This document shows positions 3,693 through 40,817 of a DNA stretch of 64,000 bases, piece by piece. Under the pieces are notes generated by a model. It was not told where the DNA came from. It did no database searches and was given only the letters and a program-made list of their open reading frames with translations. A program made the translations under genes and the position numbers. Source of the stretch: Heterodontus francisci (lineage: Eukaryota); contig NC_090387.1 in NCBI RefSeq assembly GCF_036365525.1, forward strand, positions 76,693,300 through 76,757,299. Direction: 5' to 3'. The first letter of the stretch is position 1; each line of letters begins with the position of its first letter.

Positions 3693-5711
3693 TTTCTTTC
3701 TTTCTTTCTTTGGCCTCCTTGTCTCGAGAGACAATGGGTAAGCGCCTGGAGGTGGTCAGTGGTTTGTGGAGCAGCGCCTGGAGTGGCTATAAAAGCCAAT
3801 TCTAGAGTGACAGGCTCTTCCACAGGTGTTGCAGAAAAATTTGTTTGTCGGGGCTGTTACACAGTTGGCTCTCCCTTTGTGCTTCTGTCTTTTTTCCTGC
3901 CAACTGCTAAGACTCTTCGACTAGCCACACTTTAGCCCCGCCTTTATGGCTGCCTGCCAGCTCTGGCGATCACTGGCGATCGCTGGCAGCTGACTCCCAC
4001 GACTTGTGATCAATGTCACCGGACTTCATGTTGCGTTTGCAGACGTCTTTAAAGCAGAGACATGGACAGCCGGTGGGTCTGATACCACTGGCGAGCACGC
4101 TGTACAATGTGTCTTTGGGGTTCCTGCCATCTTCCATGCGGCTCACATGGCCAAGCCATCTCAAGCGCCGCTGACTCAGTCGTGTGTATAAGCTGGGGAT
4201 CTTGGCCGCCTCGAGGACTTCTGTGTTGGAGATACGGTCCTGCCACCTGATGCCAAGTATTCTCCGGAGGCAACGAAGATGGAATAAATTGAGACATCGC
4301 TCTTGGCTGACATACATTGTCCAGGCCTCGCTGCCATAAGAGCAAGGTACTGAGGACACAGGCTTGATACACTCGGACTTTTGTGTTCCGTGTCAGTGCG
4401 CCATTTTCCCACACTCTCTTGGCCAGTCTGGACATAGCAGTGGAAGCCTTTCCCATGCGCTTGTTAATTTCTGCATCTAGAGACAGGTTACTGGTGATAG
4501 TTGAGCCTAGGTAGGTGAACTCTTGAACCATTTCCAGAGCGTGGTCACCGATATTGATGGATGGAGCATTTCTGACGTCCTGTCCCATGATGTTCATTTT
4601 CTTGAGGCTGATGGTGAGGCCAAATTCGTTGCAGGCAGCCGCAAACCTGTCGATGAGACTCTGCAGACACTCTTCAGTGTGAGATGTTAAAGCAGCATCG
4701 TCAGCAAAGAGGAGTTCCCTGATGAGGACTTTCCGTACTTTGGTCTTCGCTCTTAGATGGGCAGGGTTGAACAACCTGCCACCTGATCTTATGTGGAGGA
4801 AAATTCCTTCTTCTGAAGACTTGAACGCATGTGAGAGCAGCAGGGAGAAGAAAACCCCAAACAGTGTCGGTGCGAGAACCCAGCCCCATTTCACGCCACT
4901 CAGGATAGGAAAGGGGTCTGATAAGGTGCCGCGATGCTGAATTGTGCCTTTCATATTGTCATGGAATGAGGTGATGATACTTAGTAACTTTGGTCGACAT
5001 CCGATCTTTTCTAGTAGTCTGAAGAGACCACGTCTGCTGACGAGGTCAAAGGCTTTGGTGAAATCAATGAAAGCAATGTAGAGAGGCATCTGTTGTTCGT
5101 GGCATTTCTCCTGTATCTGACGAAGGGAGAACAGCATGTCAATGGTCGATCTCTCTGCACGAAAGCCACACTGTGCCAGAAGCTTGGCCAGCTTCTGGAG
5201 CCTGTTTAAGGCGACTCGAGCAAAGACTTTCCCCACTATGCTGAGCAGGGAGATTTCACGGTAGTTGTTGCAGTCACCACGGTCACCTTTGTTTTTATAG
5301 AGGGTGATGATATTGGCATCGCACATGTCCTGAGGTACTGCTCCCTCGTCCCAGCACAGGCAAAGCAGTTCATGTAGTGCTGAGAGTATAGCAGGCTTGG
5401 CACTCTTGATTATTTCAGGGGTAATGCTGTCCTTCCCAGGGGCTTTTCCGCTGGCTAGAGAATCAATGGCATCACTGAGTTCCGATTTTGTTGGCTGTAC
5501 GTCCAGCTCATCCATGACTGGTAGAGGCTGGGCTGCATTGAGGGCAGTCTCAGTGACAACATTCTCCCTGGAGTAAAGTTCTAGGTAGTGCTCAACCCAG
5601 CGGTCCATTTGCTTGCGTTGTGCAGTTCTAGGTAGTGCTCAACCCAGCGGTCCATTTGCTTGCGTTGTGCAGTTCTAGGTAGTGCTCAACCCAGCGGTCC
5701 ATTTGCTTGCG
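3693..5711 (-). mobile_element. 5'-truncated RTE LINE
   Basis: RT ORF 4049-5608 (QCGFR, FIDFTKAFD, LFADD) with a frameshift near 4340; (GAAA)n tail; 10-bp TSD TATGGATACC at 3683-3692 and 5712-5721. Confidence 0.95.
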
Positions 5712-5712: not shown

Positions 5713-6131
5713 ATGGATACCAGCTCATTAAAAACCCTGCTCCTTGACCCCGTTATATCAGACACATGTCACCGCAACTCATTAATTAAACTGTGAACCC
5801 GCGTGTTTCACTGGGATCACCCACATACTTATTCAGGGGAAGTCCCCAATTTGATTTTAAATTTCGACTATGTTTGGGAACTTTGTGCTTCAACGCATTA
5901 CTGCTCTGATGGTTATCACTGTAGACTTGTTATTACTGTATATCCTTCTCCGCTTATTAATATAAAAACATTGTAAGTAGCTTTCTGAATCTGTGCCGTA
6001 AAACTGAATTTGACTGAACCAATTTCATTGTTTTCTTTTTGTATGTATAACTATTATTTAAATTCCCTCTCTAACGTTATTTCGCTCTCCTATGCGTTGT
6101 CAATGGCCGCTGTTTGTATTTATTGGCTCAG

Positions 6132-6433
6132 AGCTGCTTGTGATACTTCTGTGCAAGTGCGGCAAGTCCCCGAACGCGTAACCGCCATCAAAGGTTACCT
6201 TCTATTGCACTTTTCCCCTCTTCCAAAATATCCTAGAAGTGAACATTTTCTGGTGGAAACATGATGACAGTAGATTGCTGGTAGCAGAATCAAACGAAAG
6301 AAAACCGTTTCGGGTCAAAAAGGGGAACGGTTCTTTCCAGCTCCTCGATGTAACTATGGCACCTATTTCTGTAAGGTGACATTTCAAAACAAAGTGATTG
6401 GAAACGGGATCGGATCGCTGCTCATTGCGCATG
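6132..6433 (+). pseudogene. Ig V-set exon (VJ-type) of IgSF receptor pseudogene A
   Basis: With two frameshifts: AACDTSVQVRQVPERVTAIKG/TFYCTFPLFQNILEVNIFWWKH...GSFQLLDVT/GTYFCKVTFQNKVIGNGIGSLLIAH. Has B-strand Cys, C-strand Trp, YFC, GxG motif and a phase-1 GTAAGT donor at 6434. Confidence 0.85.
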
Positions 6434-8319
6434 GTAAGTGGGATTGTAGGGAGAAGATGAGTGAAAAGGGACCGCCTCTCTGCACGTGAGAGGAGAATTG
6501 GAGTGCAATGGGTCTGGATCAGAGTTTGTAATTGCGATTGTAGCGGAGAGCAAAAGCGAAATGAGAGTGGTTCGCACTTTATTATATAGAATGTGATTTT
6601 AGATGGAATATTGTTGCAAACAATTGCAAATTACTATAGTATAAAGCGAGAGTACTTTGGATCTTTAATATACTAAGTTACTGCGAATCCCAGGTACATA
6701 TCTGCTTTTTAAAATATCTGTTGTGGAAGATCGTTAGCAGTGCCTTTATGGAAACGTTTAGACAACAAAATATGATGAGAAATAGTGAAGCGTAATTGAT
6801 ATTTTATTAATTTAATCAAGGTTTTTCCTTGACGTTATTGGACTAATGCCAACGTCTGTGGAGAATATTTCATGCTGAAGATCATTCACAGACAGTCACT
6901 AGTTAAAATGTATTTAGTACTGGGAATCAACTCGACTGCAATTATCTGCAACACTTCCGGGACCGCAGATACTACCTTAACTGATAACGTTCCTTGTCAA
7001 CCTTTCCATTTAAAAATAATGTTCCAGTTTTTGTTTCCAAACACACGCCCCTTCTCAAATCAGAGAATATATCATCTCGGTGCCAAAGATTAACGTTCCT
7101 TATTATAGGTTCCATCCTTAATACCAGCAAGGAATCACGCACCATCATCCCCAGAATAACCCTTCTTCCAGTTTATAGCATCTGAACAAACATTTCTCAT
7201 AGTTTAATTAGAAATACTAACCCCACGCATTTTAAATGCTGGTATTTTTCACTATGCATCGAATGCTAGGTTTGACACTTCTCATTGTTCTTTATTGACG
7301 GCCGCTTTTATGACTAAATTGAAAGTGTACGTGCATTGCAGAAACTGGTTTGAGACATTTAGGTTCCAACAGGTGTGAAAGGGACTGATCAGATCCTGTG
7401 TGCGATTTTGGCGGAGACCAAGAGTGAAATAAGAGTGGTTCACACTTTATTATGCAGAGCTTGATTTTTTTAGAAGGAATACTGTTGTCAACAATTACAA
7501 ATTCCAGTACCAAAACGCGAGGATTTTTGAATCTTCAGTATTGTGAACATTGAGAACATTTCTGTTGTTGAAAATGTTTAGAGTATAAAATCGCTAGCGT
7601 TGTCTTATGGAATATGAAGGGAGAATAATGCAAAATATGCGATAAGGCAGAATCCTGATTAAATTCCCGACCGCGAAGAATCATGGTCAGAGCTCTCTCC
7701 AAATAAGTAATTTGAGAGCAGGGGTGAGACAGCACCAATCCCTGAACATTTAAACTGAGGCCAGGTAGGTTTAAGAAGTGTTTAGGCGAATTGTCCTGGA
7801 GTTGCAGTCCCTGGAATGTCAAACTAAAGCCCGTGAGAGGACGAATTCCAGGAAGTTCACTTCCCAAGAATCGAGAATGATATCGCTCTGACTCCTTTGA
7901 ACTGCAAAGTCGGTGCGAAGCACAAAGTTCCGTAAATTTGTAGTATACTGTTCTGGCTACGGATCCCAACATTCGTTTTGTTTTAAGATTAAAGATGCCT
8001 TGGCAATTACCAGTTCCGACTCCCTTTCCAAGTCTCCCAGCTCAAGTTATATTCCCTTCATTGTATTCTTGCTGTGGCTATTTTCACCCAGCATACAATA
8101 CTTAACATATTCACTATTAAATGTAAGTTGCCGTTTGTCTCATTATACAGCTGACCGACTATAACACGTGAGCCCCATTCTCACTTCCCACACTCCTTAT
8201 TTTTGGTTTCTTTTATTTACAGTTAGTTGGCACTCCTGCCCAGTGACTGTGCCTGCTTTGTAAATACGTGGTAAAAGATTAAGTTGGAATAGGAAGAGAG
8301 GACGGGTTAACAATTTAAA

Positions 8320-8740
8320 GTAAAAGAACCAGATGGCGGAATGAGGAAAATTTGTTTTAAAGCAGCGTATTGTTCTGATCCAGAGCACACTTCCTGAAAG
8401 GGTGGAAGAAGCAGATTCAATGGTAACTTTCAAAAGGGAATTGGAAATGTACTTGTAACTGATCCTCTATTCAAGACAGAGATGGATAGATTTTTAGATA
8501 GTAAGGATATCAAGGGATATGGGGAGAGTGCGGGAAAATGGCGAAGATCAGCCATAATCTAGTTGAATGGCGGAGCAGGCTCGAGGGGCCGAATGGTCTA
8601 TTCCTGCTCCGATTTCCTCTGTTCCTGAAGAAAGAATGCCGGGCTGTGGGGGCAATGGGCCTAACTGGATAGCTCTTGCAAAGCGGCGAAACAGACAAAA
8701 GGGGTCAAATAGCCTCTTTCTGTGCTGAAAGATTTTAAGA
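8320..8740 (+). mobile_element. Old CR1 3' fragments
   Basis: CR1 3'UTR motifs such as GGAGCAGGCTCGAGGGGCCGAATGG. Confidence 0.7.
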
Positions 8741-9205: not shown

Positions 9206-9946
9206 ATTTGGAATGAGAGATTTGGGTGTTCAGGTCCATTTTCCCTGAAGGTGGCGACGCAGGTCAACAGAGTGGTCAAGAAGGCAGACGGCATGCTTTC
9301 CTTCATCGGACGGGGTATTGAGTAGAAGAGTTGTTACAGTTGTATAGTTGTTACAGTCATGTTACAGTTGTATAGGACTTTGGTTCGGCCACATTTGGAA
9401 TACTGCGTGGAGTTCTGGTCGCCACATTACCAAAAGGATGTGGATGCTTTGGAGAGGGTGCAGAGGAGGTTCACCAGGATGTTGCCTGGTATGGAGGGTG
9501 CTAGCTATGAAGAGAGGTTGAGTAGATTAGGATTATTTTCATTAGAAAGACGGAGGTTGAGGGGGGACCTGATTGAGGTGTACAAAATCATGAGAGGTAT
9601 GGACAGGTTGGATAGCAAGAAGCTTTTTCCCAGAGTGGGGGATTCAATTACTAGGGGACACGAGTTCAAAGTGAAAGGGGAAAAGTTTAGGGGGGATATG
9701 CGTGGAAAGTTCTTTAGGCAGAGGGTGGTGGGTGCCTGGAACGCGTTGCCAGCGGAGGTGGTAGACGCGGGCACGATAGCGTCTTTTAAGATGTATCTAG
9801 ACAGATACATGAATGGGCAGGAAGTAAAGAGATACAGACCCTTAGAAAATAGGCGACAGGTTTAGATAGAGGATCTGGATCGGCGCAGGCTTGGAGGGCC
9901 GAAGGGCCTGTTCCTGTGCTGTAATTTTCTTTGTTCTTTGTTCTTT
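9206..9946 (+). mobile_element. 5'-truncated CR1 LINE
   Basis: ORF 9359-9865 LYRTLVRPHLEYC..WSP..LERRRLRGDLI; (TTCTTTG)n tail. Confidence 0.95.
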
Positions 9947-9982
9947 GTAAGTCAGAGTAATGTTATGTGAAATCTCCATCAG

Positions 9983-10155
9983 CTTCCCCAACTCCGCGAA
10001 AGATGTTCTCCTCAGTACCTAAAGATTTTTTATCTACTTCTCTATTACTTGTGTGTAAAATGGCTGAATTTTATCCGAAGAAAATTTCCATTACTTGGTA
10101 TAAGAATGATGAGATTCTGATTGTCACACGTACTATGAAACAACAGAACAACAGA
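9983..10155 (+). pseudogene. Ig C1-set exon, 5' half (pseudogene A)
   Basis: Acceptor CATCAG| in phase 1; ASPTPRKMFS...LLLVCKMAEFYPKKISITWYKND...KQQN matches the C1 signature LxC..xFYPxxIxxxW. Confidence 0.85.
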
Positions 10156-10159
10156 ATAG

Positions 10160-10200
10160 TGTGCAGGTGATGGTGTAGTGGTAATGTCATTGGATTAGTA
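10160..10200 (+). mobile_element. tRNA-derived head fragment (family B type), split by the CR1 and resuming at ~18657-18699
   Basis: GGTGTAGTGGTAATGTCATTGGATTAGTA ... CTCTGGGGATATGGG matches the head at 29085-29160 (-). Confidence 0.55.
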
Positions 10201-10385
10201 AGACTCGGAGGGCGGAGTTCCAGAGCAGTGAGTAAATAAAAAAACTTACCTCGGGGATTTCGGAGCAGACTCGTAGGGCGGAGTTCCAGAGCGGTGAGTA
10301 TAAAAAACTTACCTCGGGGATTCTCGGAGCAGATCGGTGAGCGGAGTTCCAGAGCGGTGAGTGAACAGAGTAAGTTACCTCGGGT
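10201..10385 (+). repeat. Three ~63-66 bp tandem monomers at the CR1 5' end
   Basis: Units start at ~10201, 10267 and 10330: AGACTCG.AGGGCGGAGTTCCAGAGC.GTGAGT...ACTTACCTCGGG. Confidence 0.85.
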
Positions 10386-10566
10386 GGGAAAAAAAACTGA
10401 AAAAGTGACGTTCCAGGAAAGCTGTGACCTGATTGGCTGGTAGGGAATCTGCACCGAATTTGAAAATAAAACTGATAAAAATTGATTAAAACACTAATTA
10501 ACTAATTAATAAGTAGAGTAACTGTAGTTAGACAGCATTTAATATTTATTGTAGAAATCTAGCACT

Positions 10567-10835
10567 CCCCTTCTTCTTTGGCCTCCTTATCTCGAGAGAC
10601 AATGGATACGCGCCTGGAGGTGGTCAGTGGTTTGTGAAGCAGCGCCTGGAGTGGCTGTAAAGGCCAATTCTGGAGTGACAGGCTCTTCCACAGGTGCTGC
10701 AGAGAAATTTGTTTGTCGGGGCTGTTGCACAGTTGGCTCTCCCCTTGCGCCTCTGTCTTTTTTCCTGCCAACTACTAAGTCTCTTCGACTCGCCACATTT
10801 TAGCCCTGTCTTTATGGCTGCCCACCAGCTCTGTC
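10567..10835 (-). mobile_element. RTE 3'-end fragment
   Basis: Near-identical to 10990-11248; (GAA)n tail. Confidence 0.95.
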
Positions 10836-10971
10836 TTACATGTTAATTGTACATTAATTATGTTTAATTATACACAAGTGGTGGGCATTAACTGGGCATT
10901 CACTTGAGCTCCCTCTAAATAGGCACAAACTAAAACTATGGTTACTGGGTTAGCAAGTGTATGCTTGTAAT

Positions 10972-13900
10972 GTTTTCTTTTCTTTTCTTCTTTTGGGCCT
11001 CCTTATCTCGAGAGACAATGGATACGCGCCTGGAGGTGGTCAGTGGTTTGTGAAGCAGCGCCTGGAGTGGCTATAAAGGCCTATTCTGGAGTGACAGGCT
11101 CTTCCACAGGTGCTGCAGAGAAATTTGTTTGTCGGGGCTGTTGCACAGTTGGCTCTCCCCTTGCGCCTCTGTCTTTTTTCCTGCCAACTACTAAGTCTCT
11201 TCGACTCGCCACAATTTAGCCTTGTCTTTATGGCTGCCCGCCAGCTCTGGCGAATGCTGGCAACTGACTCCCACGACTTGTGATCAATGTCACACGATTT
11301 CATGTCGCGTTTGCAGACGTCTTTATAGCGGAGACATGGACGGCCGGTGGGTCTGATACCAGTGGCGAGCTCGCTGTACAATGTGTCTTTGGGGATCCTG
11401 CCATCTTCCATGCGGCTCACATGGCCAAGCCATCTCAAGCGCCGCTGACTCAGTAGTGTGTATAAGCTGGGGGTGTTGGCCGCTTCAAGGACTTCTGTGT
11501 TGGAGATATAGTCCTGCCACCTGATGCCAAGTATTCTCCGAAGGCAGCGAAGATGGAATGAATTGAGACGTCGCTCTTGGCTGGCATACATTGTCCAGGC
11601 CTCGCTGCCGTAGAGCAAGGTACTGAGGACACAGGCCTGATACACTCGGAGTTTTGTGTTCCGTGTCAGTGCGCCATTTTCCCACACTCTCTTGTCCAGT
11701 CTGGACATAGCAGTGGAAGCCTTACCCATGCGCTTGTTGATTTCTGCATCTAGAGACAGGTTACTGGTGATAGTTGAGCCTAGGTAGGTGAACTCTTGAA
11801 CCATTTCCAGAGCGTGGTCGCCAATATTGATGGATGGAGCATTTCTGACGTCCTGCCCCATGATGTTCGTTTTCTTGAGGCTGATGGTTAGGCCAAATTC
11901 ATTGCAGGCAGACGCAAACCTGTCGATGAGACTCTGCAGGCACTCTTCAGTGTGAGATGCTAAAGCAGCATCATCAGCAAAGAGGAGTTCTCTGATGAGG
12001 ACTTTCCGTACTTTGGACTTCGCTCTTAGACGGGCAAGGTTGAACAACCTGCCCCCTGATCTTGTGTGGAGGAAAATTCCTTCTTCAGAGGATTTGAACG
12101 CATGTGAAAGCAGCAGGGAGAAGAAAATCCCAAAAAGTGTGGGTGCGAGAACACAGCCCTGTTTCACACCACTCAGGATAGGAAAGGGCTCTGATGAGGA
12201 GCCACCATGTTGAATTGTGCCTTTCATATTGTCATGGAATGAGGTGATGATACTTAGTAACTTTGGTCGACATCCGATCTTTTCTAGTAGTCTGAAGAGA
12301 CCACGTCTGCTGACGAGGTCAAAGGCTTTGGTGAAATCAATGAAAGCAATGTAGAGAGGCATCTGTTGTTCGTGGCATTTCTCCTGTATCTGACGAAGGG
12401 AGAACAGCATGTCAATGGTCGATCTCTCTGCACGAAAGCCACACTGTGCCTCAGGGTAGACGCGCTCGGCCAGCTTCTGGAGCCTGTTCAGAGAGACTCG
12501 AGCAAAGACTTTCCCCACTATGCTGAGCAGGGAGATTCCACGGTAGTTGTTGCAGTCACCGCGGTCACCTTTGTTTTTATAGAGGGTGATGATGTTGGCA
12601 TCGCGCATGTCCTGGGGTACTGCTCCCTCGTCCCAGCACAGGCATAGCAGTTCATGTAGTGCTGAGAGTATAGCAGGCTTGGCACTCTTGATTATTTCAG
12701 GGGTAATGCTGTCCTTCCCAGGGGCTTTTCTGCTGGCTAGGGAATCAATGGCATCACTGAGTTCCGATTTGGTTGGCTGTATGTCCAGCTCATCCATGAC
12801 TGGTAGAGGCTGGGCTGCATTGAGGGCAGTCTCAGTGACAGCATTCTCCCTGGAGTACAGTTCTAGGTAGTGCTCAACCCAGCAGTCCATCTGTTTGCGT
12901 TGGTCAGTGATTATGTCCCCCGATTTAGATTTGAGGGGGGCGATCTTCTTGATGGTTGGCCCAAGAGCTCTCTTCATGCCATCATACATTCCTCTGATGT
13001 TTCTGGTGTCTGAGGCCAGCTGAATATGACTGCATAGGTGTTGCCAGTAGTCGTTTGCGCAACGCCTAGCTGTTCTTTGTGCAGTACTTCTGGCTGCTTT
13101 AAGTGCTGCGGATGTTAAATCGCTGTGGGCTTTCTTGTAGTTCAACAGTGCAATGCGCTTAGCGACTATGACAGGTTCCAGCTCTTCATTATGAGATTGA
13201 AACCAGTCTGCATTTCTCTTCGCACTTTTGCCGTAGGTGGTCAAAGCTGACTCATAGATGGCGTCTCTGATGTGGGCCCACTTGGTCTCAGCATCCCCTG
13301 TGGGAGTGTTTTGAAGGGCTGTTACAAGTGAATTTAGAAATTTTTGTAACAGCTGTGGGTGAGAAATTCTGCTCGTGTTGATGCGCGGGTGGCCCTTCTG
13401 CTTGGAATGATGCAACTTCTTTGGTCTGAGTCTAACCTTGCTGCACACCAGGGAGTGGTCGGTGTCGCAGTCCGCACTGTGGAAGCTGCGTGTGATTTGA
13501 ACACTGTTTAAGGCGGCTCGCCTTGTGACAATGAGGTCTAGCTGGTGCCAACGACGTGATCTTGGGTGCCTCCATGAAACCTGGTGACAGGGTTTAGTGT
13601 GAAAGAACGAGTTGGTGATGCAGAGGTTATGATAGGTACACAACTCAAGCAGTCTCTGCCCGTTCTCATTCATCCTTCCAACGCCATAGCGCCCAAGGCA
13701 GGAGGGCCATGAGTCATGGTCGGCCCCAACCCTGGCATTAAAGTCCCCCAGCAGGAATAGGTGTTCGGTGTTGGGGATGCTGCTAATGATGTTATGGAGT
13801 TGTTCATAGAACTGGTCTTTAGCTTCAGGTGGGGAGCAGAGTGTTGGAGCATAGATGCTGAGTAGGTGTACTGGACCAGAGGTGGTGAGCAGTCGGATGG

Positions 13901-14769
13901 ACAGTATGCGTTCCGAGCCATTTGAGGGAGGCTCTATAATGCTGAGCAAAGAGTTTCTGATGGCGAAGCCCACTCCATGCTGTCTTGGTTCTTCAGGATC
14001 CCTGCCCTGCCAGAAGAAGGTGTAGTCTTGCTCTGCTAGAGAGCCACTCGTGGGGAGGCGAGTCTCCTGAAGTGCTGCAATGTCCACATTGAATCTACTG
14101 AGCTCGTTGTTAATGATGGTGGTCTTCCGAGAATCGTTGATTTGTGTAAGGTCTTCCGACAGGCCAGGACACATAGTTCTGACGTTCCAGCTTGCAAAGC
14201 GAAGGGCTGGTACCTTCTTTCCTTTTTTCATGTTGTTTGATGTGGTGTATCAGTCCACCATTCGGGCAATGACCCTGAGCTCCAAGCACCCATTGAAGCA
14301 GGCAGACTGTGGCGGGACAGAACCTTATTGACCCGGGGCTGCCCGGTTTGAGGCGGGCGGTAGCTGTCCAGTGAGGTGCAATGACCTCTCCCACCGACAA
14401 AGGCAACCCGTGGCGCCCAGTTTCTATGCCAATTTATCTGGACTTATAACCCGTAACTGCTGCCTTCCGTGTTGTTTTAGTCGCTGTGAGGCAACTATGG
14501 AGTGACCTCTCCATGGCGCATGCCTGGGCAAATTTATGGAGGTTGAGAGTTGCCCAGTCATCAAAACCCCCCTCTCGGCCTTTCTGGTGGGGTCCAAAGG
14601 AGTGCAGGACACGACGTTTGGCACCAGTATGGCTGCAGGAACTGCCGGAAACATGCCAAAGGTGACACATGACCGCCTACGGGGTTCCGCTCCGGATTTT
14701 CTGTTAGGGTTTACTCCCTTAGCCTTGGTCTCTCCCGAGATGCCCACAAGGCAGTGGGCACCTATCAAG
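10972..14769 (-). mobile_element. Full-length RTE LINE
   Basis: ~540-bp 5'UTR, single ORF, short 3'UTR, purine-rich tail. Confidence 0.95.
11040..14231 (-). CDS. RTE ORF: AP endonuclease, reverse transcriptase and C-terminal C2H2-like finger (1063 aa, uninterrupted)
   Basis: APE motifs WNVRT, LQETR, IYAP, GDFNA, TDH; RT motifs QCGFR, DFTKAFD, GVKQG, FADD, YLGS; C-terminal CSTC..HSRIGLYSH. Confidence 0.95.
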   Translation of the reverse strand: MKKGKKVPALRFASWNVRTMCPGLSEDLTQINDSRKTTIINNELSRFNVDIAALQETRLPTSGSLAEQDYTFFWQGRDPEEPRQHGVGFAIRNSLLSIIEPPSNGSERILSIRLLTTSGPVHLLSIYAPTLCSPPEAKDQFYEQLHNIISSIPNTEHLFLLGDFNARVGADHDSWPSCLGRYGVGRMNENGQRLLELCTYHNLCITNSFFHTKPCHQVSWRHPRSRRWHQLDLIVTRRAALNSVQITRSFHSADCDTDHSLVCSKVRLRPKKLHHSKQKGHPRINTSRISHPQLLQKFLNSLVTALQNTPTGDAETKWAHIRDAIYESALTTYGKSAKRNADWFQSHNEELEPVIVAKRIALLNYKKAHSDLTSAALKAARSTAQRTARRCANDYWQHLCSHIQLASDTRNIRGMYDGMKRALGPTIKKIAPLKSKSGDIITDQRKQMDCWVEHYLELYSRENAVTETALNAAQPLPVMDELDIQPTKSELSDAIDSLASRKAPGKDSITPEIIKSAKPAILSALHELLCLCWDEGAVPQDMRDANIITLYKNKGDRGDCNNYRGISLLSIVGKVFARVSLNRLQKLAERVYPEAQCGFRAERSTIDMLFSLRQIQEKCHEQQMPLYIAFIDFTKAFDLVSRRGLFRLLEKIGCRPKLLSIITSFHDNMKGTIQHGGSSSEPFPILSGVKQGCVLAPTLFGIFFSLLLSHAFKSSEEGIFLHTRSGGRLFNLARLRAKSKVRKVLIRELLFADDAALASHTEECLQSLIDRFASACNEFGLTISLKKTNIMGQDVRNAPSINIGDHALEMVQEFTYLGSTITSNLSLDAEINKRMGKASTAMSRLDKRVWENGALTRNTKLRVYQACVLSTLLYGSEAWTMYASQERRLNSFHLRCLRRILGIRWQDYISNTEVLEAANTPSLYTLLSQRRLRWLGHVSRMEDGRIPKDTLYSELATGIRPTGRPCLRYKDVCKRDMKSCDIDHKSWESVASIRQSWRAAIKTRLNCGESKRLSSWQEKRQRRKGRANCATAPTNKFLCSTCGRACHSRIGLYSHSRRCFTNH

Positions 14770-14863
14770 GCACTAGGGACCACATAGTTAAGTGTATCAT
14801 AATTTAGTAAGGATTTAATAAGTATTTATTTATTTTATATTAATTAACTAATTAGTGCTAGAA

Positions 14864-15645
14864 ATGACAGTTAGAGGGGTCAAGTGCTTCACCTGTGAGA
14901 TGTGGGAGGTCCGTGACGCTTCCAGCATTCCGGGCGACTACATCTGCAGGAAGTGTACCCAGTTGCAGCTCCTCACAGACCGCATGGATCGGTTGGAGCA
15001 GCAACTGGATGCACTTAGGAGCATGCAGGTGGCGGAAAGCATCATAGACAGGAGTTTTAGAGAAGTGGTTTCACCCAAGGTGCAGGCAGATAGATGTGTG
15101 ACCGCTAGAAGCAGCAGGCAGTCAGTGCAGGAATCCCCTGTGGCTATCCCCCTCTCTAACAAGTATATCGTTTTGGATACTGTTGGGGGGGATGGCCTAT
15201 CAGGGGAAAACAGCAGCAGCCAGAGCAGTGGCACCACGGCTGGCACTATTGTTCAGCAGGAAGGGACAAAGTGCAGAAGAGCAATAGTTATAGGGGACTC
15301 TATAGTCAGGGGCACAAATAGGCGCTCCTGTGGACGTGAAAGGGACTCCAGGAAGGTATGTTGCCTCCCTGGTGCCAGGGTCAAAGATGTCTCTGAACGG
15401 ACAGAAAGCATTCTGAAGGGGGTGGATGAACAGCCAAAGGTTGTGGTACACATCGGTACCAATGACATAGGCAGGAAGAGTGATAAGCAGCTGGTGAAGA
15501 AGGGAGGGTTTCAGATATCTGGACCATTGGGCTCTCTTCAGGGACAGATGGGACCTGTACAAGGAGGACGGGTTGCATCTAAAATGGAAGGGCACTATAT
15601 CCTGGCTGCAAGGTTTGCTAGCGTCACTCAGGAGGGTTTAAACTA
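14864..15645 (+). pseudogene. CR1 ORF1 (zinc finger, coiled coil, SGNH esterase-like), damaged in its 3' part
   Basis: CFTC..CRKC, IGDSIVRG, CLPGA, HIGTND. Confidence 0.85.
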
Positions 15646-15646
15646 A

Positions 15647-18570
15647 TGTGGCAGGGGGATGAGAACCAGAGCAGTCGGACAGCTCGTGAAATAAATGAGG
15701 AGGACATAGTAAATAAGGCCAGTAGGACTAAGAGGAAGAGCATGCAGGGAGATGTTGCTGAGCACAGCGGGACTGGTGGTCTGAAGTGCATTTGTTTCAA
15801 TGCGAAAAGTAGAACAGGTAAGGCAGATGAACTTAGAGCTTGGATTAGTACTTGGAAATATGATGTTGTTGCTATTACAGAGACTTGTTTGAGGGAAGGG
15901 CAGGATTGGCAGCTAAATGTTCCAGGCTTTAGACGCTTCAGGCGGGATAGAGGGGGATGTAAAAGGGGTGGGGGAGTTGCATTACTGGTTAAGGAGAATA
16001 TCACAGCTGTACTGCGGGAGGACACCTCAGAGGGGTCGTGCAGCGAGGCAACATGGGAGGAGCTCAGGAATAGGAAGGGTGCAGTCGCGATGTTGGGGGG
16101 TTACTGCAGGCCTCCCAACAGCCAGCGGGAGGTAGAGGAGCAGATATGTAGACAGATTTTGGAAAGATGTAAAGGTAACAGGGTTGTAGTGGTGGGTGAT
16201 TTTAAATTCCCCAATATTGACTGGGACTCACTTAGTGCTAGGGGCTTGGATGGGGCAGAATTTGTGAGGAGCATCCAGGAGGGCTTCTTGAAACAGTATG
16301 TAGATAGTCCAACTAGGGATGGGGCCATTCTGGACCTGGTATTGGGGAATGAGCCCTGCCAGGTGGTCAAAGTTTCAGTCGGAGAGCATTTCGGGAGCAG
16401 TGACCATAATTCCTTAAGTTTTAAGGTACTTGTGGATAAGGATAAGAGTAGTCCTCGGGTGAAGATGCTAAATTGGGGGAAGGCTAATTATAACAATATT
16501 AGGCAGGAACTGAAGAATTTAGATTGTTTGGGGGTAAATCAACATCTGACATGTGCGAGTCTTTCAAACGTCAGCTGATTAGAATCCAGGACCACCATGT
16601 TCCTGTGAGGAAGAAAGACAAGTTTGGCAAGTTTCGGGAACCTTGGATAACACAGGATATTGTGAGCCTAGTCAAAAAGAAAAAGGAAGCATTTGTAAGG
16701 GCTGGAAGGCTAGGAACAGATGAAGCACTTGAGGAATATAAAGACAGTAGGAAGGAACTTAAGCAAGGAGTTAGGAGGGCTAAAAGGGGTTATGAGAATC
16801 ATTGGCAAACAGGATTAAGGAAAATCCCAAGGCTTTTTATACATATATAAAGAGCAAGAGGGTAACCAGGGAAAGGGTTGGCCCACTCAAGGACAGAGAT
16901 GGGAATCTATGCGTGGAGCCAGATGAAATGGGCGAGGTGCTAAATGAGTACTTTGCATCAGTATTGACCAAGGAGAATGACTTGGTGGATGATAAGCCGA
17001 GGGAAGAGAGTGCAGATAGTCTCAGTCATCTCATTATCAACAAGGAGGAGATGTTGGGTGTCTTGCAAAGCATTAAGGTAGATCAGTCCCCAGGGCCTGA
17101 TGGGATCTACCCTAGAATACTGAGGGAGGCAAGGGAGGAAATTGCTGGGGCCTTGACAGAAATCTTTGCATCCTCATTGGCTACAGGTGAGGTCCCAGAG
17201 GACTGGAGAATAGCCAATGTTGTTCCTTTGTTTAAGAAGGGAGGTAAGGATAATCCAGGAAATTATAGGCCAGTGAGCCTTACGTCAGTGGTAGGGAAAT
17301 TATTAGAGAGGATTCTTCAGGACAGGATTTACTCCCATTTGGAAACAAACGAACTTATTCGCGAGAGGCAGCATGGTTTTGTGAAGGGGAGGTCGTGTCT
17401 TAATTTGATTGAGTTTTTTGAGGAAGTGACGAAAATGATTGATGAGGGAAGGGCGGTGGATGTTGTCTATATGGACTTTAATAAAGCCTTTGACAAGGTC
17501 CCGCATGGCAGACTGGTGCAAAAGGTGAAGTCACACGGGATCAGAGGTGAGCTGGCAAGATGGATACAGAACTGGCTCAGTCACAGAAGACAGAGGGTAA
17601 CAGTGGATGGGTGTTTTTCTGAATGGAGGGATGTGACTAGTGGTGTTCCGCAGGGATCAGTGCTGGGACTTTTGCTGTTTGTAGTATATATAAATGATTT
17701 GGAGGAAAATGTAGCTGGTCTGATTAGTAAGTTTGCGGATGACACAAAGGTTGGTGGAGTTGTGGATAATGATGAGGATTGTCAGAGGATACAGCAGGAT
17801 ATAGATCGGTTGGAGACTTGGGCGGAGAAATGGCAGATGGAGTTTAATCCGGACAAATGTGAGGTAATGCATTTTGGAAGGTCTAATGCAGGTGGGAGGT
17901 ATACAGTAAATGGCAGAACTCTTGGGAGTATTGACAGGCAGAGAGATCTGGGCGTACAGGTCCACAGGTCACTGAAAGTGGCAACACAGGTGGATAAGGT
18001 AGTCAAGAAGGCATACGGCATGCTTGCCTTCATCGGTCGGGGCATAGAGTATAAAAATTGGCAAGTCATGTTGCAGCTGTACAGAACCTTAGTTAGGCCA
18101 CACTTAGAATATTGTGTGCAATTCTGGTCGCCACACTACCAGAAGGACGTGGAGGCTTTGGAGAGGGTACAGAGGAGGTTTCCCAGGATGTTGCCTGGTC
18201 TGGAGAGCATTAGCTATGAGGAGAGGTTGGAAAAACTCTGATTGTTTTCACTGGAATGACGGAGGTGGAGGGGCGACATGATAGAGGTTTACAGAGTTAT
18301 GAGCGGCATGTACAGAGTGGATAGTCAGAAGCTTTTTCCCAGGGTGGAAGAGTCAGTTACTGGGGGACATAGGTTTAAGGTGCGAGGGGCAAAGTTTAGA
18401 GGGATGTGCGAGGCAAGTTTTTTATAAACAGGGTGGTGAGTGCCTGGAACTTGCTGCCAGGGGAGGTGGTGGAAGCAGATATGCTAGCGACGTTTAAGAG
18501 ACATCTTGACAAATATATGAATAGGAAGGGAATAGAGGGATATGGGTCCCGGAAGTGCAGAAGGTGTTAG
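15647..18570 (+). pseudogene. CR1 ORF2 (APE-RT), frameshifted
   Basis: Pieces 15646-16578, 16524-16850 and 16802-18241; motifs AITET, SDH, PGPDG, QHGF, GVPQG, FADD. Confidence 0.95.
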
Positions 18571-18699
18571 TTTAGGCAGGCATCAATTCGGCGCAGGCTT
18601 GGAGGGCCAGATGGCCTGTTCCTGTGCTGTACTGTTCTTTGTTCTTTGTTCTTTGTTTAGGCATATTCTCTGGGGATATGGGCTTGGTTGCCACCATAA

Positions 18700-19035
18700 G
18701 GGGCGGCGCAGTGGTTAGTACCCTCACAACTCAAGCAACCCGGGTTCGGTTCTGGGTACTGCCTGTGTGGAGTTTGCAAGTTCTTTCCGTGACTTTTTGG
18801 GTTTCCTTTGGGTGCTCCAGTTTCCTCCCACATGCCAAAGACTTGTGGGTTGAAAGGTAAATTGGCCATTGTAATTTGCCCCTAGTGTAGGTAGGTGGTA
18901 TACGAATTGAGGAAAGGTGCGGATGTGTGAGGCAAATGCGATTAATGTAGGATTAATATAAATGGGTGGTTGATGGTCAGCGTGGACATGTTGGGCCGAA
19001 GGGCCTGTTTCGGTGCTGTATCTCTCTATAACTCC
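18700..19035 (+). mobile_element. V-SINE (older copy)
   Basis: Same layout as 727-1073, more diverged. Confidence 0.85.
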
Positions 19036-19174
19036 AATGGACTTTATGAAGTCTACAGCAATTTTGTAGAGACCAAGCCTGCCCAGATTGGGACTGTTTA
19101 CACCTGTCTAGTATCTGACATCTCTCTTCTACTGCCAGCCTTAGTTTTTTCGATAAATGTTAAAATAATCACAA
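19036..19174 (+). pseudogene. Ig C1-set exon, 3' half (pseudogene A)
   Basis: NGLYEVYSNFVETKPAQIGTVYTCLVSDISLLLPA contains the C1 F-strand YxCxV motif; candidate phase-1 GT donor at 19175. Confidence 0.8.
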
Positions 19175-19303: not shown

Positions 19304-22300
19304 CTTCTTCTTCTTCTTCCTCTTCTTCTTCTTTGACTTCCTTGATTCGAGAGACAATGGGTAAGTGCTTAGAGGTGGTCAGTGGTTTGTGGAGCCGCGC
19401 CTGCAGTGGCTATAAAGGCCAATTCTAGGGTGACAGACTCTTCCACAGGCGCTGCAGATAAAATTGGTTGTCGGGGCTGTTACACAGTTGGCTCTCTCGT
19501 TGCACTTCGGTCTTTTTTCCGGCCAACTGTTCAGTCTCTTCAACTCACCACTCTTTAGCCCCGCCTTTATGGCTGTCTGTCAGCTCTGGCGATCACTGGC
19601 AACTGACTCCCACGACTTGTGATCAATGTCACAGGACTTCATGTCGCGTTTGCAGACATCTTTAAAGCGGAGACATGGACGGCCGGTGGGTCTGATACCA
19701 GTGACGAGCTCGCTCTACAATGCGTCCTTGGGGATCCTGCCATCTTCCATGTGGCTCACATGACCAAGCCATCTCAAGCGTCGCTGGCTCAATAGGGTGT
19801 ATATGCTGGGGATGTTGGCTGCCTCGAGGACTTCTGTGTTGGAGATATGGTCCTGCCACCTGATGCCAAGGATTCTCCGATGGAATGAGTTGAGACATCG
19901 CTCTTGGCTGACATACATTGTCCAGGCCTCGCTGCTGTAGGGCAAGGTACTGTGGACATAGGCTTGAAACACTCGGACTTTTGTGTTCTGTGTCAGTGCG
20001 CTATTTTCCATCATCCTCTTGGCCAGTCTGGACATAGCGGCGGACGCCTTTCCCATGTGCTTGTTGATTTCTGCATTGAGAGACAGGTTACTGGTGATAG
20101 TTGAGCCTAGGTAGGTGAATTCTTGAACTACTTCGAGAGCGTGGTCGCCGATATTGATGGATGGAGCATTTCTGAACTCCTGTCCCATGATGTTTGTTTT
20201 CTTGAGGTTGATGGATAAGCCAAATTCATTGCAGGCAGCCGCAATCTTGTCGATGTGTGTCTGCAGACACTTTTCTGTGTGGGATGTTAATGCAGCATCG
20301 TCAGCAAAGAGGAGTTCTTTGATGAGGACTTTCTGTACTTTGGTCTTTGCTCTAAGACGGGCAAGGTTGAACAACCTGCCATTTGATCTTGTGTGGAGGA
20401 AAATTCCTTCTTCTGAAGACTTGAATGCATGTGAGAACAGCAGTGAGAAAACGATCCGAAACAGTGTCGGTGCGAGAACACAGCCCTCTTTCATGCCACT
20501 CAGGATAGGAAAGAGGTCTGATGAGGCACTGCTATGCTGAATTGTGCCTTTCATATTGTCATGCAATGAGGTGATGATACTTCGTAGCTTTGGTGGATAT
20601 CCAGTCTTTGCTAGTAGTCTGAAGAGACCACGTCTCCTGACGAGGTCAAAGGCTTTGGTGAGATCAATGAAAGCAACATAGAGGGGCATCTGTTGTTCAC
20701 AGCATTTCTCCTGTAGCTGGCAAAGGGAGAACAGCATGTCAATGGTGGATCTCCCTGCTTGAAAGCCACACTGTGCCTCAGGGTAGACTCGCTCAGCCAG
20801 CTTCTGGAGTCTGTTTAAAATGACTTGAGTGAAGACTTTCCCCACTATGCTGAGCAGGGAGATTCCACAGTAGTTGTTGCAGTCTCACCGTGCTCACCCT
20901 TGTTCTTATAGAGGGTGATGATATTGGCATCACGCATGTCCTGTGCTACTGCTCCCTCATCCCAGCACAGGCAAAGTAGGACATGGAGTGCTGACAGCAT
21001 AGTAGGCTTGGCACTCTTGATTATTTCAGGGGTAATGCCATCCTTTCCAGGGGCTTTTCCACTGGCTAGAGAATCAGTGGCATCACTGAGTTCCGATTTT
21101 GTTGGCTGTTTGTCCAACTCATCCATGACTGGCAGAGACTGGGCTGAATTGAGGGCAGTATCAGTGACAACATTTTCCCTGGAGTACAGTTCTAGGTAGT
21201 GCTCCACCCAGTGGTCCATTTGCTTGCGTTGGTCAGTGATCAAGTCCCCCGATTTAGACTTGGGCGGGGGCGGGGGGTGGTGGGGGGGTGGCGATCTTCT
21301 TGATGGTTGGCCCAAAAGCTCTCTCAATGCCATCATACATTCCTCTGATGTTTCCAGTGTCGGAGGCCAGCTGAATACGACTGCATAGGTGATGCCAGTA
21401 GTCATTTGCACAGCGCCTGGCTGTTCCCTGTGCAGCGCTTCGGGCTACTTTACGTGCTATGGATGTTAACTCGCTGGGGGCTTTCTTGTAGTTGAACAGT
21501 GCAGTTAGCGGCTATGACAGGTTCCAGCTCTTCAAAGTGAGATTGAAAGCAGTCCGCAGTCTGCTTCTCACGTTTGCCAAAGGTGGTCATTGCTGAGTCA
21601 TAGATGGCGTCTCTGATGTGGGCCCACTTCATCTCTGCATCCCCTGCAGGAGTGTTTTGAAGGGCTTTTTCAAGTGAATTTAGAAACTTATGTAATAGCT
21701 GTGGATAAGTAATTCTGTTAGTGTTGATGCACAGGCGGCCCTTCTACTTGGAGTGATGTAGTTTCTTTGGTTTGAGTCTAACTTTGCTGCCCACCAGGGA
21801 GTGGTCAGTGTTGCAGTCCACACTGTGGAAGCTGCGTGTGATTTGGACACTGTTTATAGAGGCTTGCCTTGTGATGAGGTCCAGCTGGTGCCAACGATGT
21901 GATCTTGGGTGTCTCCATGAAACCTGGTGACAGTGTTTAGAATGAAAGAACGAGTCCTGCTCTGCACTCCTTTGGACCCCACTAGGAAGGCTGAGAGGGG
22001 TTTTTTGATGCTTGGGCAACTCACAACCTCCATACATTCTGCCCAGGCATGCGCCATGGAGCGGTCACTCCATAGTCGCCTCACAACATAGTCGACCAAA
22101 ACAACATGGAAGGCAGCAGTTATGGGTTATAAGTCCAGCTCAATTGGCGTAGAGATTGGGCACCACGGGTTGCCTTTGTCAGTGGGAGAGGTCATCGCAT
22201 CGCACTGGACAGCTACCACCCACCTCAAACCGGGCAGCCCCCGGTCAGTAAGGTTCTATCCCACCAAAGTCCAGCTGCTTCAATGGGTGCTTGGAGCTCA

Positions 22301-22968
22301 GGGTCATTGCCCGACAAGTGGACTGTAACACCACACCAAACAGCACGACAAAAAAAAAAGGAAAGAAGGTACCAGCCCTTCGTTTTGCAAGCTGCAACGT
22401 CAGAACTATGTGTCCTGGCCTGTCGGAAGACCTTACACAAATCAACAACTCTCGGAAGACCACCATCATTAACAATGAGCTCAGTAGACTCAATGTGGAC
22501 ATTGCAGCACTTCAGGAGACACGCCTCCCTGTGAACAGATCTCTAAGAGAGCAAAACTACACCTTCTACTGGCAGTGTAGGGATCCTGAAGAACCAACAC
22601 AGCATGGAGTGGGCTTCGCCATCAGAAACTCTTTGCTCAGCATGATAGAGCCACCTTCAAATGGCTCGGAGTGCATGCTGTCCATCTGACTACTCACCGA
22701 CTATGGTCCAGTCCACCTACTCAGCATCTATGCTCCAACACTCTGCTCCCCACCTGAAGATAAAGACAAGTTCCAGGAGGAACTCCGTAATACCATTAGT
22801 AGCATTCCCAATACCAAACATTTGTTCCTGCTGGGGGACTTTAACGCCAGGGTTGGGGCCAACTATGACTCTTGGCCCTCCTGCCTTGGGACTATGGCAT
22901 TGGAAGAATAAATGAGAATGGACAGAAACTGCTTGAGTCGTGTACCTATCACAACCCCTGCGTCACCA
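19304..22968 (-). mobile_element. RTE LINE with 5' inversion (19304-21955 minus, 21956-22968 plus)
   Basis: Broken RT/APE ORFs; inverted 5'UTR plus N-terminus (KKGKKVPALRFAS); TSD CAAAAGTT at 19296-19303 and 22967-22974. Confidence 0.92.
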
Positions 22969-22999
22969 AAAGTTATGTAACTGCAAATATAAATGACAA

Positions 23000-23500: not shown

Positions 23501-23596
23501 AAAGCAAAATACTGCGGATGCTGGAAATCTGAAACAAAAACAAGAAATGCTGGATTCACTCAGCAGGTCTGGCAGCATCTGTGGAAAGAGAAGCAG

Positions 23597-23633
23597 AGTT
23601 AACGTTTCGGGTCAGTGACCCTTCTTCGGAACT
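23597..23633 (-). ncRNA. Minimal type I hammerhead ribozyme (pLTR)
   Basis: Reverse complement reads AGUU-CCGAAGA-A-GGGUC-ACU-GACCC-GAAAC-GUU-AACU. Confidence 0.8.
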
Positions 23634-24227
23634 GACAAATATTAGAAAAGTCACAGATTATAAACAAGTGAGGTGGGGGTTGGGCAAGAGATAACAAAGG
23701 AGAAGGTGCAGATTGGACCAGGCCACATAGCTGACCAAAAGGTCACGGAGCAAAGGCAAACAATATGTTAATGGTGTGTTGAAAGACAAAGCATTAGTAC
23801 AGATTAGGTGTGAATATACTGAATATTGAACATCAGCAAGTGCAAACCTGAAGAAAAACAACCTGAAAAAAACAGTGGGTAAGCAAACTGAACAAACTAA
23901 GATGAAATGAAATAAATGCAAAAAAAGATTGTAAAAAATGTAAAAAGGAATGCAAAAAAAAGGAAGAAAAAATAACTAAAAATGACTAAAAATGAAAGTA
24001 AAGTGGGGGGCTGTCATGCTCTGAAATTATTGAACTCAATGTTCAGTCCGGCAGGCTGTAGTGTGCCTAATCGGTAGATGAGATGCCGTTCCTCGAGCTT
24101 GCGTTGATGTTCACTGGAACACTGCAGCAATCCCAGGACAGAGATGTGAGCATGAGAGCAGGGGGGAGTGTTGAAATGGCAAGCAACCGGAAGCTCAGGG
24201 TCCTGCTTGCGGACTGAGCGGAGATGT

Positions 24228-24752
24228 CGCATCTTCCCCTCCCTTCCCCTGTCAGCATTCCGAAGGGATCGTTCCCTCCGCGACACCCTGGTCCACTCCT
24301 CCATTACCCCCACCACCTCGTCCCCATCCCAGGGCACCTTCCCTTGCAATCGCAGGAGGTGTAATACCTGCCCATTTACCTCCTCTCTCCTCACTATCCC
24401 AGGCCCCAAACACTCCTTTCAGGTGAAGCAGCGATTTACTTGTACTTCTTTCAATGTAGTATACTGTATTCGCTGCTCACAGTGTGGTCTCCTCTACATT
24501 GGGGAGACCAAGCGCAGACTGGGTGACCGCTTTGCGGAACATCTCCGCTCAGTCCGCAAGCAGGACCCTGAGCTTCCGGTTGCTTGCCATTTCAACAGTC
24601 CCCCCTGCTCTCATGCTCACATCTCTGTCCTGGGATTGCTGCAGTGTTCCAGTGAACATCAACGCAAGCTCGAGGAACAGCATCTCATCTACCGATTAGG
24701 CACACTACAGCCTGCCGGACTGAACATTGAGTTCAATAATTTCAGAGCATGA
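24228..24752 (+). pseudogene. Penelope ORF C-terminus: Cys linker and GIY-YIG endonuclease (5'-truncated)
   Basis: CNRRRCNTC, NVVYCIRCSQCGLLYIGETKRRLGDRFAEH, GLN. Confidence 0.93.
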
Positions 24753-25132
24753 CAGCCCCCCACTTTACTTTCATTTTTAGTCATTTTTAGTTATTTTTTC
24801 TTCCTTTTTTTTGCATTCCTTTTTACATTTTTTACAATCTTTTTTTGCATTTATTTCATTTCATCTTAGTTTGTTCAGTTTGCTTACCCACTGTTTTTTT
24901 CAGGTTGTTTTTCTTCAGGTTTGCACTTGCTGATGTTCAATATTCAGTATATTCACACCTAATCTGTACTAATGCTTTGTCTTTCAACACACCATTAACA
25001 TATTGTTTGCCTTTGCTCCGTGACCTTTTGGTCAGCTATGTGGCCTGGTCCAATCTGCACCTTCTCCTTTGTTATCTCTTGCCCAACCCCCACCTCACTT
25101 GTTTATAATCTGTGACTTTTCTAATATTTGTC

Positions 25133-40020: not shown

Positions 40021-40817
40021 CTGATCAGCTCTTGGAAAATACTGTGGAATTCGGAAGTTATGCTTCCAAGGATAAATAACACTAGATATCTGCCAGTTAA
40101 AATTCATTCAAATACAAATTACAGTTACTTTATAAAGTAACATTTTGGGATACAGAATGTGGGTAACTTGAGTCATGACGTGTGTTACCTATAGCATGCT
40201 TGGGAGGAATAGGTGACTTTGGACCTATGGTTCCCAAAGCTGTCCACCATGTGGTTTTCCTTACGTTAGGACTGTTCTGAACTGCTTGATAGAGACTGAT
40301 TGCCATGATTAGTCAACAACTCCATTATCATGGTTTCATGCAACTACCAGGATATAGAAGGTGGATTAGATGGACCGTCTTCTGTTCATCCAACAATTCC
40401 TACATTCCTATCTAAATAATCAATTAAGTCGTAGGATTGACATCTAATACCAATTGATTGAAATTCATGTAACATTTGAATTTTTCTTTATTTCATATAT
40501 CTTGTAGATATAAATATTGCCTCCTCCAATTACCGAATCCCTCACATTGTGGTGGGTTCACTGGCAATCTTAACGCTGCTACTGATCCTTGCTGATCATG
40601 TGATATTACGTAGTTGTACAGGTAAGACTCACTGTTTTGCTTATGTACATATATACACTAATCAAATAAAAAAAAAAGCTTAGAAAGGGGAACTAGATGT
40701 TATTTATCAGAGACAGATGTCCTCGTATCATTAGAATTGTGGAAATGGATGGGATTTTTCAAATAAATCTCAGACGGAAATCAATGCTGCAGAGCTGGTA
40801 GATGCAAGTTATTCTGT

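What the first reader, a model, noticed from the sequence alone, without database searches (positions are those of the whole stretch)
9983..19174. Ig C1 exon split by a ~8.9 kb nest of elements
Seen: ...WYKND...KQQN (ends ~10155) and NGLYEV...YTCLVS (starts 19036) join into one complete C1-set domain with phase-1 ends. Between them are a tRNA-head fragment plus V-SINE, into which a full-length CR1 inserted, into whose 5'UTR an RTE composite inserted (GCACT at 10562 and 14770). This gives the insertion order and explains why ORF callers miss the gene.
Basis: partly seen in the sequence, partly recalled or inferred. Interest (0 to 1): 0.7.

Follow-up and report, generated by a model that had tools for sequence, protein, structure and literature searches.

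The report
Dead immune gene split by retrotransposons
One exon of a broken, likely dead copy of a shark-type immune-receptor gene is split by 8.9 kb of jumping-gene DNA stacked in three layers, and the youngest layer carries a piece of another chromosome that it likely picked up by read-through; a clean but mostly ordinary fossil record.

Summary
Window 9983-10149 and 19033-19174 are two halves of one C1-set exon: together they score 104 bits on a profile of 14 intact paralogues, apart 51 and 41. It holds a SINE head plus V-SINE, a CR1 inside the head, and an RTE inside the CR1 5' UTR; 19 of 19 other CR1 copies are uninterrupted there. Divergence agrees with that order (about 9%, 4%, 1%). Corrections: the gene is a pseudogene, since its V exon has two frameshifts and stops; it is not an antibody gene but one of 45 or more V(J)-C1-TM receptor genes on this contig; the RTE lacks about 616 nt of 5' UTR; the CR1 is broken. 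New here: the RTE composite is one of five dispersed copies carrying the same 400-nt tag. The donor locus lies on another contig and lacks the full RTE. All five end at a second RTE tail, which fits 3' transduction under strict 3'-end recognition. Real, well resolved, modest interest.

The parts
6134..6433 (+). V(J-like) exon of the same gene, 300 nt, phase 1-1, broken by 8-nt and 10-nt deletions; stops at 6262-6267
   Evidence: tblastn, DNA alignment to 4 paralogous V exons, coordinates, same letters in read contigs
9983..10149 (+). C1-set exon, 5' half, with phase-1 acceptor
   Evidence: Pfam C1-set E 1.8e-6; paralogue profile positions 1-56
10150..10163 (+). short filler at the 5' junction, partly repeating the exon bases just before it
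   Evidence: sequence; origin inferred
10164..10201 (+). 5' part of the head of a dispersed SINE family (SacSINE1-like by recall, not tested)
   Evidence: 40 other matches in the genome; alignment with 24 copies
10201..18657 (+). CR1-type LINE: 5' monomer array, esterase-like ORF1 from 14864 with a 138-nt deletion at 15487, frameshifted EN/RT ORF2, (TTCTTTG)n tail; about 10 nt of the SINE head lost at the site, no duplication
   Evidence: Pfam; 19 copies; ORF map; head alignment
10562..10566 (+). target-site duplication GCACT, left copy (right copy 14770-14774)
   Evidence: 19 of 19 CR1 copies uninterrupted at this site
10567..10833 (-). outer RTE 3' fragment with tail; part of the carried tag
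   Evidence: 97% to the inner 3' end; has its own 10-nt duplication at the donor locus L045/L082
10834..10973 (-). 140-nt spacer, a piece of an older dispersed repeat; part of the carried tag
   Evidence: 85% family hits; the repeat runs on uninterrupted at the donor
10974..14758 (-). RTE-type LINE, single open frame of 1063 aa from the first Met (14231-11040), lacking about 616 nt of 5' UTR
   Evidence: Pfam EN and RT; family copies; clade name from architecture and recall
14759..14769 (.). 11-nt filler at the RTE 5' junction
   Evidence: not matched by family copies
18658..18697 (+). rest of the SINE head, after the CR1; the SINE's remaining 300 nt or so are absent
18698..19029 (+). V-SINE, complete from 5' end to tail
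   Evidence: V core compared by eye with a published alignment
19030..19032 (+). likely 3-nt target duplication AAC (left copy 10147-10149); overlaps the tail repeat, so the edge is unsure by a few bases
19033..19174 (+). C1-set exon, 3' half, with second Cys; weak phase-1 donor
40508..40621 (+). transmembrane-like exon, 114 nt, phase 1-1, canonical splice sites; likely of the same gene
   Evidence: hydrophobicity scan, splice sites and weak profile score 8.3 bits, E 0.73

Best explanation
This is a likely dead copy of a tandemly repeated V(J)-C1-transmembrane immune-receptor gene whose C1 exon is interrupted by 8,883 nt of nested retroposons. Shown: the halves belong to one exon; the CR1 interrupts a SINE head; the RTE composite interrupts the CR1 5' UTR with a 5-nt duplication; the V exon has frameshifts and stops; the composite has four sister copies and a donor locus on contig C9. 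Inferred: (1) a V-SINE was reverse-transcribed into the exon and the enzyme switched to another SINE's RNA, adding its 90-nt head in one event (about 65%); (2) a CR1 later landed in that head with loss of about 10 nt; (3) an RTE that once sat at the C9 site, absent from this assembly, was read through into 140 nt of flank and an earlier RTE 3' fragment, whose tail primed insertion; one 5'-truncated product landed in the CR1 (about 70%). Once the gene was dead such insertions would be neutral and pile up. Which lesion killed the gene first is not known.
For: Split exon. Pseudogene: V exon deletions and stops; one contig of 2,754 nt in each of 2 DNA runs covers 5900-8436 with no difference, and one bridges 9925-10194 (same sample as the assembly may be). 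Best database relatives are only 41-44% identical over about 200 aa and 55% over the V piece. RTE in CR1: 19 of 19 empty sites. CR1 in SINE head: both head pieces align in order with family copies, 22 of 24 of which run on for 260 nt or more. Age order by mismatches to the closest copy held: V-SINE 9.3% (median 14.2%, 42 loci), CR1 4.1% (median 5.2%, 18 loci), RTE 0.9-1.5% (11 loci with 1.7-kb alignments). Transduction: spacer-tail junction in 4 of 40 scored loci, a fifth copy truncated in the spacer; 5 of 5 end at the outer tail and each sister has its own duplication of 7-13 nt; at the donor the fragment has its own duplication and the spacer repeat runs on across the junction as in 13 of 14 family copies; the donor carries the majority base at all 14 variable sites.
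Against: No orthologue with an empty site was found, so the exon edge is inferred from paralogues at 36-52% identity. The source RTE is not at the donor site in this assembly; its former presence is inferred. The loci used for divergence were picked by similarity to the query, so the figures are not family means. A V-SINE inserted in the same SINE family with the rest of the SINE kept also exists (L159), so the one-step chimera is not the only route. The transmembrane exon lies 21 kb away and scores weakly; no leader or cytoplasmic exon was found. Genome searches scored only 40 of up to 3,584 candidates, so copy numbers are lower bounds.
Confidence: 0.87

Rival explanations
1. The insert is spliced out as a new intron and the gene still makes a protein, with the V exon skipped.
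For: A donor-like CAG|GTGATG at 10166 and an AG at 19057-19058 would join in frame; neither half has a stop; the V exon is phase-symmetric; the transmembrane exon has good splice sites.
Against: The acceptor has no pyrimidine tract; the join would drop the conserved E-strand motif; the V exon has two frameshifts and stops; the His after the second Cys is replaced and the exon's own donor is weak.
Confidence: 0.03
2. The outer layer arose in two steps: a whole SINE inserted in the exon, then a V-SINE replaced its 3' part by insertion with deletion.
For: V-SINEs do insert into this SINE family (L159); the CR1 insertion here also deleted target bases.
Against: The deletion would have to end exactly at the exon edge, since the exon keeps its paralogue length; a second head-plus-V-SINE locus without remainder exists (L105, 1 of 24 heads). 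This rival changes one step only; the confidence is for that step.
Confidence: 0.3
3. The RTE composite arose by a template switch between a transcript of the C9 locus and an RTE RNA, and a full-length product (such as the copy on C4) then served as master.
For: No RTE stands at the C9 junction in this assembly; the C4 copy is full length with its own duplication.
Against: The inner RTE keeps its whole tail at the junction, as a genomic insertion would; the daughters form a star around the donor sequence and share no variant with the C4 copy; sources absent from the reference are documented for human L1 (PMC9311842, passages). The confidence is for this step only.
Confidence: 0.28
4. The halves belong to different genes or were joined by misassembly.
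For: The region is a tandem cluster full of repeats; each half is only 36-52% identical to any paralogue.
Against: The halves abut on the profile without gap or overlap, neither has a second half elsewhere, every inner layer closes properly, and a read contig bridges the left junction.
Confidence: 0.03

Closest known systems
Nested retroposon insertions in a pseudogene (TE nesting as a clock; e.g. PMC2672092, search listing only)
   Same: Younger elements split older ones; empty sites and divergence give the order.
   Different: Here the outermost target is a coding exon, and three layers are resolved with junctions.
3' transduction by human L1 and SVA (PMC8232201 and PMC9311842, passages)
   Same: Flanking DNA copied to other chromosomes, 5'-truncated daughters with own duplications, a traceable donor, a source that may be missing from the reference.
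   Different: The carrier is an RTE-type LINE without poly(A); all five copies end at a second RTE tail. My searches listed no report of this for RTE; subscription journals are mostly not searched.
Joined-VJ immunoglobulin-superfamily receptors: SIRP, NITR, NKp30, PRARP (PMC11599192, one passage); UrIg and UrIg2 (PMC12227049, parts 1-3 of 8)
   Same: V and J-like strand in one exon, followed by a C1-set domain.
   Different: One V, one C1, a transmembrane exon and, in intact relatives, tyrosine motifs in the tail; UrIg has three C1 and is secreted, UrIg2 nine C1; SIRP has two C1 (recalled). Database names for the relatives are automatic and disagree.
V-SINE (HE1 of sharks) and SacSINE1 (PMC3747384, PMC5499810, PMC6887750, passages)
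   Same: V core matches a published V-SINE alignment by eye; the head family is a SINE of about 400 nt common in this genome.
   Different: No consensus of HE1 or SacSINE1 was aligned; those names are leads.

Membership tests
Ig C1-set domain | Scores above the Pfam C1-set cut-off | tested here: met
   Left half 28.6 bits, cut-off 21; intact paralogue 41.4 bits. The joined peptide was scored on a paralogue profile, not on Pfam.
Ig C1-set domain | B-strand Cys, C-strand Trp and F-strand Cys at family spacing | tested here: met
   No gap against 14 paralogues with the 10149|19033 join
Rearranging Ig/TCR genes | V and J as separate segments | tested here: not met
   V and J-like strand lie in one exon here and in paralogues
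UrIg/UrIg2 | VJ followed by three or more C1 domains | tested here: not met
   One C1 per gene in the 264-kb region and in P0001; definition from PMC12227049
SIRP family | Orthology by phylogeny or synteny with tetrapod SIRP; V-C1-C1 layout (recalled) | not tested
   Only automatic names and a distant PDB hit, E 4.6e-15, ranked among antibody chains
Functional gene | Open frame through V and C1 | tested here: not met
   Stops at 6262-6267 and the insert
CR1 LINE | Esterase-type ORF1 plus EN/RT ORF2, microsatellite tail | tested here: met
   GDSL-like hit weak (E 0.005, below cut-off), EN and RT strong; esterase ORF1 typical of vertebrate CR1 and some L2 (PMC13343379, passages)
CR1 LINE | RT phylogeny placing it in CR1 and not L2 | not tested
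   No reference set on hand
RTE clade LINE | Single ORF with EN and RT, short-repeat tail, target duplications | tested here: met
RTE clade LINE | RT phylogeny | not tested
   Clade name rests on architecture and recall
3' transduction | Same tag in dispersed copies, each with a duplication enclosing element plus tag, and a donor locus with the tag in native context | tested here: met
3' transduction | Source element directly upstream of the tag at the donor | tested here: not met
   Absent in this assembly; whether another allele has it stayed open
V-SINE | Conserved V core | tested here: met
   By eye against Ac1 and MER6 rows in the supplement of PMC6887750
V-SINE / SacSINE1 | tRNA-derived head | tested here: inconclusive
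   No ARAGORN or Rfam hit; decayed SINE heads often fail these

The most novel reading that the evidence does not exclude
An RTE-type LINE can carry flanking DNA to new chromosomes only when read-through ends in a second copy of its own 3' end, which restores the signal its reverse transcriptase needs. This locus and its four sisters would be a natural record of that route, launched from a source allele on contig C9 that was never fixed or has been lost. Such double-tailed tags would let one trace source elements in shark genomes as is done for human L1.
Probability: 0.55. Interest if true: 0.5.

Novelty: new member of a known kind. Interest (0 to 1): 0.32.

Why it matters
The locus itself is a pseudogene with stacked insertions, expected in a 6-Gb repeat-rich genome. 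It is useful in two small ways. It orders three retroposon waves in this lineage with tested junctions. And it exposes a traceable RTE transduction family whose copies all end in a second RTE tail, a testable hint of how LINEs with strict 3'-end recognition can still move host DNA. The host family, 45 or more non-rearranging V(J)-C1 receptor genes on one contig with relatives in sharks, rays and a chimaera, may matter more to immunologists than this dead copy.

Tried and rejected
Orthologue search: the left half found no protein (weak evidence); the V piece found 12 proteins, best 55%; a tree of 39 rows (9 of 48 homologues and all short ones left out for lacking V plus C1 cover, plus the pseudogene) gave no supported sister. 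Expression: no RNA holder listed; two runs guessed to be RNA gave no cover of the V exon or the C1 half; this is no evidence either way. Second allele at the donor: contigs of 4 runs of one sample break at 6078/6081 of L082, at the junction, which fits a repeat-caused branch as well as an insertion allele; no verdict. A second copy of the donor's unique flank was not found. A recurrent head-plus-V-SINE element with this exact junction: none among 39 other scored matches. tRNA and Rfam scans: nothing. Leader and cytoplasmic exons: none above noise in the window. My tyrosine-motif count (31 of 48) includes false hits in the C1 domain and is not used. RNA folds of the two RTE 3' ends were run without controls and are not used. 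Earlier findings: three look-ups returned nothing. Papers not held: PMC6761025, PMC10530332, PMC4594805; supplement of PMC5499810 not readable; these may already name the gene family or give the SacSINE1 consensus.
Full report
Observation. The left piece starts after a phase-1 acceptor at 9983 and hits Pfam C1-set positions 4-43 (E 1.8e-6). The right piece has no Pfam hit alone. Searched against the own genome, the left half found 19 other loci and the right half 40, all on contig C17; for 16 of the 19 the two hits are adjacent. I built a profile from 14 intact paralogous exons (18 loci tried; 4 did not pass the motif filter) and scored 25 trial joins in a script: the best score 104.4 bits, the halves alone 51.3 and 41.0, intact paralogues 106-155 by leave-one-out. 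The joins that keep paralogue length imply an insert of 8,883 nt; 10149|19033 with a duplicated AAC is the simplest. The V-SINE tail repeat resembles the target bases there, so the edge is unsure by a few bases.

The gene. Relatives are V-C1-transmembrane proteins of about 270-420 aa; 48 were found, named from sharks, rays and a chimaera, with automatic and inconsistent names such as SIRP-like, tapasin-like or B7-H6-like. Several carry two to four tyrosine motifs in the tail (for example P0001, P0004, P0008, P0019). One such protein matches at least 46 C1-like and 40 V-like exons on C17 (my count; 121 of 411 candidates scored). In the window, a V exon lies at 6134-6433 and a transmembrane-like exon at 40508-40621. 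The V exon holds the V and J-like strand together, as in paralogues, so this is not a rearranging antibody gene. It lacks 8 and 10 nt relative to four paralogues and reads into stops at 6262-6267. Short-read contigs of two DNA runs show the same letters over 5900-8436, so an assembly slip is unlikely, though the runs may be the assembly's own sample. The gene is thus broken twice over. Its pieces are 41-44% identical to the best database proteins and have no supported sister in a tree: an old paralogue with no known intact counterpart.

Outer layer. 10164-10201 and 18658-18697 align in order with the head of a dispersed SINE family; 22 of 24 copies examined run on for 260 nt or more. About 10 nt are missing where the CR1 sits, with no duplication. 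After the head comes a complete V-SINE (18698-19029); its core matches a published V-SINE alignment by eye (PMC6887750 supplement). The rest of the first SINE is absent. As the exon resumes at full length, a single insertion with a template switch is the simplest reading. One other locus has the same form (L105) and one has a V-SINE inserted with the remainder kept (L159), so a two-step route remains possible. The name SacSINE1 for the head family is recalled, not tested.

Middle layer. The CR1 runs from 10201 to 18657, with three 5' monomers, an esterase-like ORF1 and an EN/RT ORF2. It has a 138-nt deletion at 15487 against the 19 copies compared (138-146 nt) and ORF2 is in pieces. It is near full length but dead.

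Inner layer. GCACT flanks a 4,203-nt insert; 19 of 19 CR1 copies are uninterrupted at this site. The insert is a minus-strand RTE-type LINE with an open frame of 1063 aa, then 140 nt of spacer, then a second 260-nt RTE 3' end. Family copies extend about 616 nt further at the 5' end, so this copy is truncated in its UTR. The spacer-tail junction occurs at three other loci (C2, C4, C16; 4 of 40 scored) and a fifth copy is cut within the spacer (C11). They are 97.5-98.4% identical to the window, each has its own duplication, and all five end at the outer tail. At C9 the short fragment has its own 10-nt duplication and the spacer repeat continues across the junction as in 13 of 14 family copies; no full RTE is there. 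This is the donor, and it carries the majority base at all 14 variable sites.

Mechanism. 3' transduction is well known for human L1 and SVA, including sources absent from the reference (PMC8232201, PMC9311842; passages). Several LINE clades are thought to need their own 3' end for reverse transcription, and RTE and CR1 dominate the SINE/LINE pairs that suggest this (PMC3747384, passages). A read-through transcript ending in a second RTE 3' end would meet that need, which explains why all five copies stop there. The source is inferred, not seen; a template switch followed by a composite master is the rival. Three paper searches listed no RTE case; the library lacks most subscription journals.

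Order and age. Nesting gives SINE head before CR1 before RTE. Mismatches to the closest copies held agree: V-SINE 9.3%, CR1 4.1%, RTE 0.9-1.5%. These are relative; I give no dates. Whether the insert or the V deletions came first cannot be told without an orthologue.

Against and open. No empty site of the exon in another species; expression untested; clade names of the LINEs not tested by phylogeny; a splice rescue is possible in frame but has a poor acceptor and would not mend the V exon. Searches for a named description of the receptor family gave papers on UrIg, UrIg2 and joined-VJ genes (PMC12227049 parts 1-3 of 8; PMC10751288 and PMC11599192 passages), none of which in the text I saw describes this cluster; three relevant papers were not held. 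PMC5499810, PMC6887750 and PMC13343379 were seen as passages, 10.1101/2024.04.29.591526 as abstract only.

Verdict. Observation confirmed with small corrections; interpretation partly supported. A real pseudogene with three resolved layers, and a traceable transduction family as the one mildly new element. Interest 0.32.

Noticed in passing
G000:C17, about 71.0, 76.1-77.1, 88.4-90.3 and 92.55 Mb: At least 46 C1-like and 40 V-like exons of one non-rearranging V(J)-C1-transmembrane receptor family, many with open frames; relatives in sharks, rays and a chimaera carry only automatic names. I found no paper naming it, but three relevant papers were not held.
   Followed up: partly
window 61030-61355 (+): A second broken C1 exon of the same family, with frameshifts and a long G run; no V exon found for it.
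   Followed up: partly
L081 (G000:C4, near 82,566,500): Full-length sister of the RTE composite with its own target duplication, but a broken reading frame.
   Followed up: partly
window 11040-14231 (-): The RTE frame is fully open, and the family has many copies about 99% alike (1,501 candidates, 40 scored): a young, perhaps still active family.
   Followed up: partly
window 23513-25253 and 38803-39859: Long, nearly perfect inverted repeats (715 nt at 99%; 504 nt at 100%), the second built of 245-nt tandem units.
   Followed up: no
window 3693-5626 and 19314-22969: Two more RTE copies in this gene's introns; the second has an inverted 5' part.
   Followed up: no
window 9215-9948: A truncated CR1 ends about 35 nt upstream of the C1 acceptor, where the branch point and pyrimidine tract should lie.
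   Followed up: no
L105 and L159: Other loci where a V-SINE directly follows part of the same SINE head; the remainder is kept in L159 and absent in L105.
   Followed up: partly
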